From the NCBI GenBank assembly GCA_965153355.1, contig OZ231126.1:10292001-10356000 (forward strand): a stretch of DNA of 64,000 nucleotides. The letters run 5' to 3'. Below, piece after piece: positions 59,390 to 62,235 of the stretch. Source of the stretch: Flaccisagitta enflata. Taxonomy: Eukaryota. How positions within the stretch are numbered: position 1 is the stretch's first letter; every line of letters begins with the position of its first letter. The notes under the pieces were generated by a model. It made no database searches, was not told the origin of the DNA, and saw only the letters and a list, made by a program, of their open reading frames with translations. The position numbers and the translations under genes were made by a program.

Positions 59390-62235
59390 CATACATGCTT
59401 AACAAACCTGAGAATCCAAAAAAAGAGTAACGATACTACGTTGTAAAACGTATAAACGTATCGCTTCCGTCGTGTTAGCCTTCCACGTCACGTTCAAGCG
59501 GGCTTGGTTAAGCCTTTTCTGGGGAACTGTGTCGCTACATGGGTTCTTGGGGGCGCCGAAGGAAACTTTAAAGAAGCTGAACCCTGTTTTGAACCTGTAT
59601 AAATAAATAAATAGAAAACTTTTATTTTTCCATTCGATAGTTACAATAACGAAAGGATATATCTATTCAACTTGTATCAATACTTTCCTGCTTTTGTCAA
59701 TCCAAGATCCCAAATCTTCGAGGAGGAGGAGGAGGAGGAGGAGGAGGAGGAGGAGAAAAGAAATAAAAAATTAGAAAAAATTGCAATCATAATTTTTACT
59801 CAGCAAACTACTCATTATATACGCGCATTTTTTGGTAACTGTTTGATCGTACCCGTGTACTGCGGCATGTCACTGTAGAGATTGGCGAACGCTCGATTGA
59901 ATTTTGATTTAGACGACCAATCAGCATCAAGCTTTAGACAAGGGAAACGAAGGTTATCCAGATCAAACCTATTGAGAGCATGTGGTCTAAATTAAGCAAA
60001 CGATTAGCTTTGGGGAGGAGCTTTAAAGCAAACACATCAAGTCAACAATAATGCCTAACGCAACGTCAATAACCAGATGTCATCCACATCCATGGGGGTG
60101 AAGTTAAAGACAGACGTCGCAAATGATGAAATTGCAGCGGTATTTGTAGTCATGGCGATGACGCAGATTTCAGGGAGGAATTCACCGCTGAAGCAGTCCT
60201 CTTTTCGCCAGTGGGTCGAATTGGTCGGGATGATGAATTCACGAGCGCTGGTGTGATAATAAGTGTAGCAGACTGGACTTTGCTGGAGACGACGTTCCAT
60301 AGTGAGTAATAAATCGCTATGAACATGTACCTGTACAGGATGAAAAAACTATAAAGTAGCATGGCTAATCTTTCGCTATGGCAAGGACAGGCTCACGCTT
60401 AAATACCTTACATACCCGAGGTACAATTAGTTTCACATTGGAGATTTCAAACTTGAAGTTTGCCGAGGGTACCGCACTTCTCATACAAGCCGTTGGCGCG
60501 GCCAGCTCGTACTCCAGCGACAGACTAATCATAGGAATCTAACAAAACAGAAACACATCCATAAATAAACCAATTAATCTATTTTTCATTTAACAAGAGA
60601 GCAAAAATTTCATAAACTCACTAGATATTTTTTTTGCTGTAGGAAACCATGAAATGGTGGGGCGCGTAGATAATACAGCGCAGATTCTGCGGTATTTTCT
60701 CCTCTTTTTGACAGTCCACTAGGAGTTTGGATGCTAACATTCGACATGTCTTTCTCATCATACCTTAAAATCAAGGATAAAAAAAGGGTCAATGAAAACA
60801 TTTCATCGAGATTTACCCGATGTGGGTGAAATTTATCAGTATGAATAAACATTACCATCCCCAAAGTTCGAGCAACGATTTCCGCGCCTCCCTACAAAGA
60901 AAAGAGTAAAATCACATGTAGTGGCAATCAATCAATGTGTTTTTCAAGAATCAATAACAGGCAGGAACCCAGCCCTTGAAGGCCGCAAGCGTACCTTTGG
61001 TACCACATCGTTAAAAAGGCCACGGAATAGATAGGGTACAACCCATTGCAGTTTGAGATGCTCTCGTTATTGAGCTTTATATTGACATTCTTGAAAACGC
61101 AGAATCCTGAAAAAAAATATATCAATACCGGTGTTAAAACCACCATCAATTCGTTCGCACTCAACCCTGTGTTTGTTTATTCACCTGGTAATTGGTCAAA
61201 CTGGACTCCGAGAAACGCATTGGCGCCCACACTAGATGGCCTGTGTGGGGTGAGGAGATCTGGCGTCGTGAGCGCCCGGGAGGAGCGAGGGTCGATTCGT
61301 CGCCTTTTCTTTCTTGGTCGTCGCACATTATTGTCTTCGTCGTCTTCGTCATTCTCGCTAGTCGTGTCGCTTAAGTCCTCTTCATCGTCGTCATCATCCT
61401 CCTCGTCATCGTCTCTCCTTCGTTTACGCTGAGTTCCAGCTCTTCCCTCCGCTGGGAACACCGTTGCGCGGGGATCGATTCGTACCTTTTTCTTCGGTTG
61501 TTGCGCGTCATCGCTGTCCTCGTCTTCGTCAACGCTGCTCGTTTCGCTGCTCGTTTTACTGCTCGTTTCACTCTCGTCGTCGTCGTCTCTCCCTCGCTTG
61601 CGTTTAATCGCGCCCCCTCGCTGCGTGATCGTCGACACCGCGGGAAGGGACGAAGATGACGGATATCCGGGTGCCAAAACCGACGGTCTTGTCCCGCACG
61701 TGTATGGATTATTCAGACGATTTAGTCTCTCTCGCTCCCGAAAGTAATTGCTTGATGAACAAACGCCGGTACTGGTCAAGGTCGATGGGCGCGAACCCGA
61801 TCCGCGACCAGTCGTGTTTGTGAGAGTGTAGGCGGGGGTCGACAATGCTGTAGTTGTAAAGTTAACGGCTGGGATGTCCGCTCCCGTGCTGGAATATCAG
61901 ATATTAAAGACTTAATTGTATAATTCAACTAACAGCACAAGATATAAATAGTATGAAATATCTCCAATTGTCAATGGATAAGTATACCTGGTCACGATTT
62001 TTAAAGAAAATTCGAGACAAATTTCTCTGAGATCCACAAGCGTGTTTTGAGGCTCGACTTGAATGGTAAAGCTTTTAGTGTTGCTGGTAATCGGCAGCGA
62101 TGGATAAAACGGCACAGGGGAAATATGATCGATACTGAAATCACGTTTCGGTACGCTCCACAAATCAAAACGCTCCGAGATGCATGTTTCGCTAGAGTCG
62201 ACGTAGACCGTCGCGGGATCGTGTATTCCGCTCAT
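59257..62235 (-). CDS. MCP: Major capsid protein (double jelly-roll, Polinton PY/hexon-like), 11 exons, ~661 aa
   Basis: Exons: 62235-61988, 61888-61185, 61106-60995, 60891-60856, 60763-60622, 60538-60416, 60330-60074, 59968-59853, 59715-59688, 59594-59408, 59289-59257 (sum 1986 nt). The product follows the Polinton MCP pattern throughout: ERFDLWSVP, NIKLNNESIS..YP, GLSKR, QKKYL, FSGEFLP, FNF, GFSFF, LDSQRQVI. Confidence 0.88.

What the first reader, a model, noticed from the sequence alone, without database searches (positions are those of the whole stretch)
59595..59715. Apparent non-canonical GA-AG intron after a 28-nt MCP microexon
Only the donor AG|GAAAGT at 59688/59687 keeps frame and gives DLGSWIDKSRFKTGFSFF, matching the family spacing. 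The GT 4 nt further on frameshifts to a stop. GAAAGT is consensus GTAAGT with +2 T->A. GA donors are rare generally but reported as common in the copepod Eurytemora affinis. It could be a host-adapted site, a rate-limiting control point or a disabling mutation.
Basis: partly seen in the sequence, partly recalled or inferred. Interest (0 to 1): 0.72.

Follow-up and report, generated by a model that had tools for sequence, protein, structure and literature searches.

The report
Viral capsid intron with GA start
A virus-like element (Polinton) in an animal genome has a capsid gene split by ten short introns, one of which starts with GA instead of the near-universal GT; it is likely still spliced, because the rest of that splice site matches the host's splicing RNA better than any normal site examined.

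Summary
Observation confirmed. On the minus strand a 28-nt exon (59715-59688) is followed by CAG|GAAAGTAT and a 93-nt intron ending in a pyrimidine tract and CAG. It is intron 9 of 10 in the double-jelly-roll capsid gene of a Polinton/adintovirus-type element. Family spacing favours this junction over five alternatives (67.7 vs 40-58 bits). A second, 91%-identical copy has the same GA, and the exons downstream evolved under purifying selection (pN/pS 0.12, p=0.0015), which argues against a disabling mutation. New: the site matches host U1 at all 9 positions outside +1/+2; none of 138 host or 39 viral GT donors exceeds 7. Host adaptation of the Eurytemora kind is not supported: 138 of 138 sampled host donors are GT and no U1 variant was found. 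No spliced read was obtained: the only RNA run is another species. Best reading: a rare, compensated GA-AG intron spliced by the ordinary spliceosome; a regulatory throttle remains open.

The parts
59688..59715 (-). 28-nt microexon (MCP exon 9), whole codons read LGSWIDKS
   Evidence: fills the 10-residue gap that homologues fill with e.g. DLGSWINPER (P0253)
59680..59690 (-). GA donor CAG|GAAAGTAT; matches host U1 5' end at 10 of 11 positions (-3..+8), all but +2
   Evidence: same in copy 2
59595..59687 (-). Intron 9, 93 nt, GA...AG, 23% GC, T-rich tract and CAG acceptor; in-frame stop if retained
59682..59683 (-). Competing GT at +5; weak (6 of 11 U1 matches), out of frame with the main acceptor
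59652..59660 (-). U12-type donor-like 9-mer ATATCCTTT inside intron 9, kept in copy 2; lies after the in-frame stop, no U12 branch motif downstream; possible U11 binding site (lead only)
59716..59852 (-). Intron 8, 137 nt, GT-AG, (CCT)n pyrimidine tract
59853..59968 (-). MCP exon 8
59408..59594 (-). MCP exon 10 (starts FKTGFSFF after the split codon)
59257..62235 (-). Major capsid protein gene, 11 exons; introns 61987-61889, 61184-61107, 60994-60892, 60855-60764, 60621-60539, 60415-60331, 60073-59969, 59852-59716, 59687-59595 (GA), 59407-59290; exon 2 carries a charged low-complexity insert
   Evidence: family fold = double jelly roll
58456..59189 (-). Adenain-like protease gene with one GT-AG intron (about 58853-58765), named by eye from His/Cys motifs
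   Evidence: no Pfam hit over cut-off
62289..63047 (-). Arg/Gly-rich ORF, likely core (pVII-like) protein; name inferred
63050..63946 (-). 300-codon ORF, likely minor capsid (penton) by position and size; not tested
46793..52186 (+). 1797-codon ORF, likely protein-primed family B DNA polymerase by recalled motifs; no Pfam or PDB hit

Best explanation
Intron 9 of this Polinton capsid gene begins with GA and is likely removed by the host's ordinary major spliceosome, because every other base of the site is complementary to the host U1 5' end. Shown: the junction is needed to keep the capsid's family spacing; both genomic copies carry it; the exons after it evolved under purifying selection; the site matches U1 at -3..+1 and +3..+8, the best match of any donor examined. 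Inferred: the extra pairing (U1, then probably U6 at +5..+8) offsets the missing +2 contact, so the full-length capsid is made, perhaps a little less efficiently than from GT introns; a GA could persist only at a site this strong.
For: Junction scoring 67.7 vs 40.2-57.9 bits. Donor-agnostic aligner picks it in both copies. Outside homologues P0242, P0248, P0253 and sister family L058-L060 run uninterrupted through this stretch with the same spacing. Copy 2 (C1:110.80 Mb) keeps CAG|GAAAGTAT although intron 9 differs at 6 of 92 aligned bases. pN/pS between copies: 0.21 upstream, 0.12 downstream of the GA (3/167 vs 7/49, Fisher p=0.0015); no stops or frameshifts in the MCP exons. U1 match outside +1/+2 is 9 of 9; maximum 7 among 138 host and 39 viral GT donors; chance about 0.2-0.3% from position frequencies. 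Introns of these elements behave as real spliceosomal introns: two near-identical copies of another family differ by exact presence/absence of two introns. Precedents: a GA donor in Trema SYMRK spliced at about 95% (PMC10668435, section 8); Eurytemora GA donors have an obligate upstream AG and mostly +3 A (PMC5714493), as here.
Against: No spliced read: the only RNA run is from another species. Only two copies, so 6-base donor conservation alone is weak (65% chance at the intron's divergence). The microexon itself has 2 amino-acid changes and no silent change between copies (chance about 0.08). Both copies also share non-standard residues in polymerase motifs, so shared oddities could be inherited defects of one lineage, though the polymerase too shows pN/pS 0.14-0.23. 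In human minigenes GA/GG donors gave less full-length product than GC donors (PMC12805630, passage). The aligner made 10 other, spurious non-GT calls among 18 loci, so its call is not proof by itself.
Confidence: 0.62

Rival explanations
1. The GA intron is spliced but is kept by selection as a throttle or switch: slow or conditional removal would hold capsid output low (retention or the +5 GT give premature stops) until late in a productive cycle, possibly helped by a U11-binding motif 27 nt into the intron.
For: One non-GT donor among 14 introns seen in the element's morphogenesis genes; the sister family also has exactly one non-GT donor (GC, 3 of 3 copies) in the second half of its MCP. 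Both failure routes end in stops. The only RTATCCTTT of the 64-kb window lies in this intron, is kept in copy 2, and can pair with the host U11 5' end; 0 in 81 kb of host introns and 0 in 12 other MCP loci.
Against: A perfect U1 match looks like selection for efficient, not poor, splicing. The U11-like motif was found post hoc; 1.2 are expected by chance in the window and copy 2 has two more in the integrase region. The GC and GA introns are at different positions. No expression data.
Confidence: 0.2
2. The capsid is made by another route: skipping the microexon to the acceptor at 59584, or a GC/GG donor with that acceptor.
For: These routes keep the frame; 2 amino-acid changes in the microexon between copies.
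Against: They delete 4-14 residues of a conserved stretch and score 14-24 bits lower; the GC at 59691 has 5 of 11 U1 matches; homologues all keep the segment.
Confidence: 0.08
3. The +2 base is a disabling change in a defective lineage that was copied with help in trans.
For: Only two copies; copy 2 is truncated at both ends and its polymerase is broken by insertions and frameshifts; both share odd polymerase motifs.
Against: Purifying selection on MCP exons, including those after the GA, since the copies split; a random hit would land on a donor perfect at all other positions only about 0.2-0.3% of the time.
Confidence: 0.05
4. The host (or a previous host) uses GA donors commonly, as Eurytemora does, and the element simply conforms.
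For: Same AG|GAA context as Eurytemora and Oikopleura GA donors (PMC5714493; PMC7072748 passages); intron 9 is lineage-specific, as Eurytemora's GA introns are.
Against: 138 of 138 well-aligned host donors are GT, upper 95% bound 2.1%; 0 of 60 genomic sites with this 11-mer look like host exon ends while 46 of 51 true exons pass; 35 of 38 U1 hits canonical, none a GA-complementary variant. Caveat: the sample is old, highly expressed myosin and chaperonin genes with shared intron positions; a former host is untested.
Confidence: 0.05

Closest known systems
U2-type GA-AG introns (human FGFR1-3 and ITPR1; Trema orientalis SYMRK intron 12)
   Same: GA at +1/+2 with otherwise consensus U2-type sites, in a genome where GA donors are rare (PMC4176328 passages; PMC10668435 abstract and section 8).
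   Different: Here in a viral capsid gene; no GT 6 nt upstream as needed in the FGFR case (upstream reads AAGCAG); splicing not yet seen.
Eurytemora affinis / Oikopleura dioica genome-wide GA donors
   Same: Obligate AG before the donor, A at +3, lineage-specific intron, canonical U1 5' end (PMC5714493, whole text; PMC7072748 passages).
   Different: There about 10-12% of sampled donors are GA/GG; here 0 of 138 sampled host donors.
Polintons/Mavericks (adintoviruses)
   Same: rve-like integrase, double-jelly-roll MCP, adenain-like protease, packaging ATPase, large polymerase-like ORF (definition from PMC8502044 passages).
   Different: Ten spliceosomal introns in the MCP and introns in the ATPase and protease genes; terminal inverted repeats not found.
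Faustovirus E12 MCP gene; introner-bearing Polinton-like elements of dinoflagellates
   Same: Double-jelly-roll capsid gene in many exons, with non-canonical splice sites (PMC6520786 passage); introns inside integrated Polinton-like elements (PMC11957031, part 1 of 4).
   Different: Faustovirus introns are large, group I or spliceosomal-like, over 17 kb; here introns are 78-137 nt U2-type. No introner-like similarity among these introns.

Membership tests
U2-type GA-AG intron | G at +1, A at +2, AG at the exon end, consensus elsewhere in the donor | tested here: met
   CAG|GAAAGTAT, 10 of 11 U1 matches
U2-type GA-AG intron | Pyrimidine tract and YAG acceptor | tested here: met
   TTTATTTATTTATACAG; branch point not tested
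U2-type GA-AG intron | Removal restores the conserved protein | tested here: met
U2-type GA-AG intron | Spliced transcripts observed | not testable with these tools
   only run X1 listed, and it is another species
FGFR-type dependent GA donor | Canonical GT 6 nt upstream of the GA | tested here: not met
   upstream hexamer AAGCAG has no GT
Eurytemora-type host GA usage | About 10% of host donors GA/GG | tested here: not met
   0 of 138; 0 of 60 motif sites exon-like
U12-type intron | RTATCCTTT donor at the exon end plus U12 branch motif | tested here: not met
   motif lies 27 nt inside the intron after a stop; no branch motif
Introner-derived intron | Sequence similarity to other introns, terminal repeats | tested here: not met
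   only 17-18 nt low-complexity matches among the 10 introns, none in other fetched loci
Polinton/adintovirus | Double-jelly-roll major capsid protein | tested here: met
   family model (P0252 first, window exons in the alignment) pLDDT 78, matches iridovirus, Sputnik, mavirus, PBCV-1 MCPs at E about 1e-14; the window protein itself was not folded
Polinton/adintovirus | rve integrase | tested here: inconclusive
   PF00665 E 3.8e-6, 27.5 bits, under the 32.6 cut-off, in L003:1900-3198
Polinton/adintovirus | Protein-primed family B polymerase | tested here: inconclusive
   no Pfam or PDB hit; named from recalled motifs, two of which are non-standard in both copies
Polinton/adintovirus | Packaging ATPase and adenain protease | tested here: inconclusive
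   Walker A/B and His/Cys motifs by eye only
Polinton/adintovirus | Terminal inverted repeats and target-site duplication | tested here: inconclusive
   only microsatellite or dispersed repeats found; ends of copy 1 not defined

The most novel reading that the evidence does not exclude
Animal Polintons have loaded their virion genes with short host-style introns that come and go between near-identical copies, and use one deliberately non-canonical donor per capsid gene (GA with a perfect U1 match and a nearby U11-like site here, GC in the sister family) as a splicing switch that gates capsid production, a latency or late-gene control not found described for this virus group.
Probability: 0.15. 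Interest if true: 0.78.

Novelty: new variant of a known kind. Interest (0 to 1): 0.5.

Why it matters
GA donors are about 0.006-0.01% of introns in human and plants (PMC5714493; PMC10668435), and how the spliceosome accepts them is unsettled. A GA donor kept under selection in a viral capsid gene, in a host that does not appear to use GA, with a perfect U1 match that host donors in this sample never reach, is a clean natural case for compensation by extended pairing. It also shows that Polinton capsid genes can be cut into 11 exons, so ORF-based surveys will miss or mis-call them as broken. Searches that did not find a GA-AG intron in a virus or an intron-rich animal Polinton capsid gene: (open-access library only).

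Tried and rejected
RNA evidence: one run listed; no reads on MCP exons, but the control on a host chaperonin gene gave 0 of 173 reads at 99% or more identity, so X1 is another species and the blank says nothing. Further copies outside the genome: none in metagenome contigs or viral contigs (2 matching stretches gave no locus); an alignment query had too little conservation. Variant U1: one hit (L237) seemed to have a GA-complementary 5' end, but its first 85 nt are a high-copy repeat fused to a U1 3' part; rejected. U6: 12 of 12 examined (of 48 hits) have the standard ACAGAGA box. Genome counts of the 11-mer with +2 = A, T, G (203, 297, 131) are all below their reversed controls, so the count test has no power. 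The exon-likeness scorer is blind to viral exons (0 of 9 pass), so it does not exclude other viral GA sites; none of the 120 motif loci matched Polinton coding regions convincingly. Chaperonin paralogues aligned with a distant profile were noisy and were not counted. Single-sequence fold of P0242 failed (pLDDT 31); PDB sequence searches blank; Atlas gave DJR-like clusters as a lead. A-to-I editing would read the +2 base as G, not U (own knowledge), so it does not make the site canonical. Earlier-findings look-ups were empty. Supplements of the cited papers were not opened; Robertson's File S1 holds the Eurytemora donor sequences that would allow a direct comparison.

Full report
Observation. 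On the minus strand, 59715-59688 is a 28-nt exon between a 137-nt GT-AG intron and a 93-nt stretch that starts GAAAGTAT and ends in a T-rich tract and CAG. Keeping the 93 nt meets an in-frame stop; the GT at +5 with the main acceptor stops after 8 codons. Scored against a profile of 11 paralogous capsid segments, with X at each junction, the GA junction gets 67.7 bits and five alternatives 40.2-57.9.

What the gene is. The window (G000:C1:10292001-10356000) holds part of a Polinton/adintovirus-type element: polymerase-like ORF, adenain-like protease, capsid, Arg-rich core, penton-like ORF, and just outside an rve-like integrase and an ATPase. Several of these names rest on motifs seen by eye or recalled. 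A model of the capsid family (P0252 first, three window exons in a 26-row alignment) has pLDDT 78 and matches iridovirus, Sputnik, mavirus and PBCV-1 major capsid proteins at E about 1e-14. A spliced aligner that penalised all non-GT donors equally found ten introns in the window's capsid gene, nine GT and one GA, and chose the same GA junction in the second copy; it also made 3 GC calls in the sister family and 10 spurious non-GT calls in inserts or broken regions across the 18 loci. Homologues run straight through this stretch: P0253 DLGSWINPERFRSGGYAWF, P0242 DVGGWIDPQRFATAGFAIF, L058 DVGSFISPARFKDKGYTYF, against the window's LGSWIDKS and FKTGFSFF on either side of the split codon.

Is it a dead site? 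The genome has one other close copy, 91% identical here, in different flanks. It keeps the same donor although a base 4 nt upstream and 6 of 92 intron bases differ, which excludes an assembly error. Between the copies pN/pS is 0.21 for capsid exons upstream and 0.12 downstream of the GA (3/167 vs 7/49; p=0.0015), 0.14-0.30 for polymerase, integrase, penton-like and protease genes and 0.52 for the Arg-rich ORF. Since both carry GA, the ancestor likely did, and the capsid stayed under selection afterwards. Against: two copies only; two amino-acid changes in the microexon (chance about 0.08); copy 2 is truncated and its polymerase broken; both copies share odd polymerase motifs.

Mechanism. The host U1 5' end is canonical in 35 of 38 hits; two are degenerate and one is a repeat-U1 chimera. 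The GA donor is complementary to it at 10 of 11 positions; the other nine capsid donors reach 6-8, the competing GT 6. Outside +1/+2 it matches 9 of 9, where 138 host and 39 viral GT donors reach at most 7; position frequencies put 9 of 9 at 0.2-0.3%. Even perfect canonical 11-mers did not look like host exon ends (0 of 40; 46 of 51 true exons pass). A random disabling change would rarely strike so strong a site; a tolerated +2 change would need one. That U6 also pairs at +5..+8 follows from the host U6 sequence and recalled spliceosome geometry. Functional GA donors are known: about 95% splicing in Trema SYMRK (PMC10668435, abstract and section 8), human cases (PMC4176328 and PMC12805630, passages). 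The FGFR dependence on a GT 6 nt upstream does not apply here.

Host adaptation. In 13 host genes (CCT3 and 12 myosins) 156 introns were called; 138 passed an alignment filter and all are GT; 18 were dropped, including 6 non-GT calls, none starting with G. None of 60 genomic sites with the same 11-mer looks like a host exon end. Eurytemora has about 12% GA/GG (PMC5714493, whole text). The sample is biased to old, abundant genes, and a former host cannot be tested.

Regulation. The element's 14 introns seen include one non-GT donor; the sister family has one GC donor; failure at intron 9 yields stops. A U12-type donor-like 9-mer sits 27 nt into the intron in both copies, the only one in the window, able to pair with host U11 but after a stop and without a branch motif. 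It was found post hoc and the motif occurs twice more in copy 2's integrase region, so it is a lead only.

What is missing. No spliced read. The single listed RNA run gave no capsid reads but is another species by control. No outside copies were found.

Novelty. GA-AG introns, Polintons, and intron-split capsid genes (Faustovirus, PMC6520786 passage; introners in dinoflagellate elements, PMC11957031 part 1 of 4) are each known. Nine searches of the open-access library showed no GA-AG intron in a virus and no animal Polinton capsid in 11 exons; passages of PMC8502044, PMC12220804 and bioRxiv 2023.08.22.554363 mention no spliceosomal capsid introns. Verdict: a real and probably functional non-canonical intron, new variant of a known kind, interest 0.5; 0.78 if it proves to be a capsid switch (probability about 0.15).

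Noticed in passing
L061 (C8:24.42 Mb) vs L062 (C2:61.01 Mb): Two near-identical copies of another Polinton family differ by exact presence/absence of two MCP introns (120 and 80 nt), i.e. recent precise intron gain or loss in a viral gene.
   Followed up: partly
L058-L060 (C7), about position 1658: Sister Polinton family with the same N-terminal charged insert uses a GC donor (CAG|GCGAG) in 3 of 3 copies; its intron positions differ from the window's.
   Followed up: partly
L056-L080: 25 MCP-like loci in the genome, from intronless (L070-L073, L077) to about 9-10 introns (window, L061); many lie at the end of C1 (103-112 Mb). Viral introns are mostly 80-130 nt, host introns median 376 nt.
   Followed up: partly
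window 46793-52186 and L006: Both copies share non-standard residues in polymerase motifs B and C (by recalled family motifs), yet the gene shows pN/pS 0.14-0.23; possibly a divergent or repurposed polymerase.
   Followed up: partly
L003 about 5480-4552 (just right of the window): Packaging ATPase gene with three GT-AG introns; integrase, polymerase and penton-like ORFs have none, so introns sit in the ATPase, capsid and protease genes.
   Followed up: partly
G000, 40 sampled sites (L161-L180, L201-L220): None of 40 perfect canonical 11-mer sites looks like a host exon end (46 of 51 true exons pass), suggesting that host donors avoid full U1 complementarity.
   Followed up: partly
window 61888-61185: MCP exon 2 carries a roughly 200-residue acidic/basic low-complexity insert with nuclear-localisation-like stretches, under purifying selection (0.28); similar inserts in L058 and P0254.
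   Followed up: no
L005-L008 (C1:110.78-110.81 Mb): Copy 2 spans only window 44218 to inside the integrase, with insertions and frameshifts in the polymerase; flanks differ from copy 1.
   Followed up: partly
L048, L049: A duplicated host chaperonin gene (likely HSP60) has a GC donor AG|GCAAGA in both copies.
   Followed up: no
window 39585-41012, 43038-46792, 53739-58377: Further long ORFs (Ser/Thr-rich with a transmembrane stretch; zinc-finger-like; acidic) probably belong to the element; no Pfam hit over cut-off for the three scanned.
   Followed up: no
G000: Host: 794 Mb in 9 contigs, microsatellite-rich, many myosin paralogues; CCT3 is 88-94% identical to unnamed sequences and mostly 68-79% to named animals. 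A chaetognath is a recalled guess, untested.
   Followed up: partly
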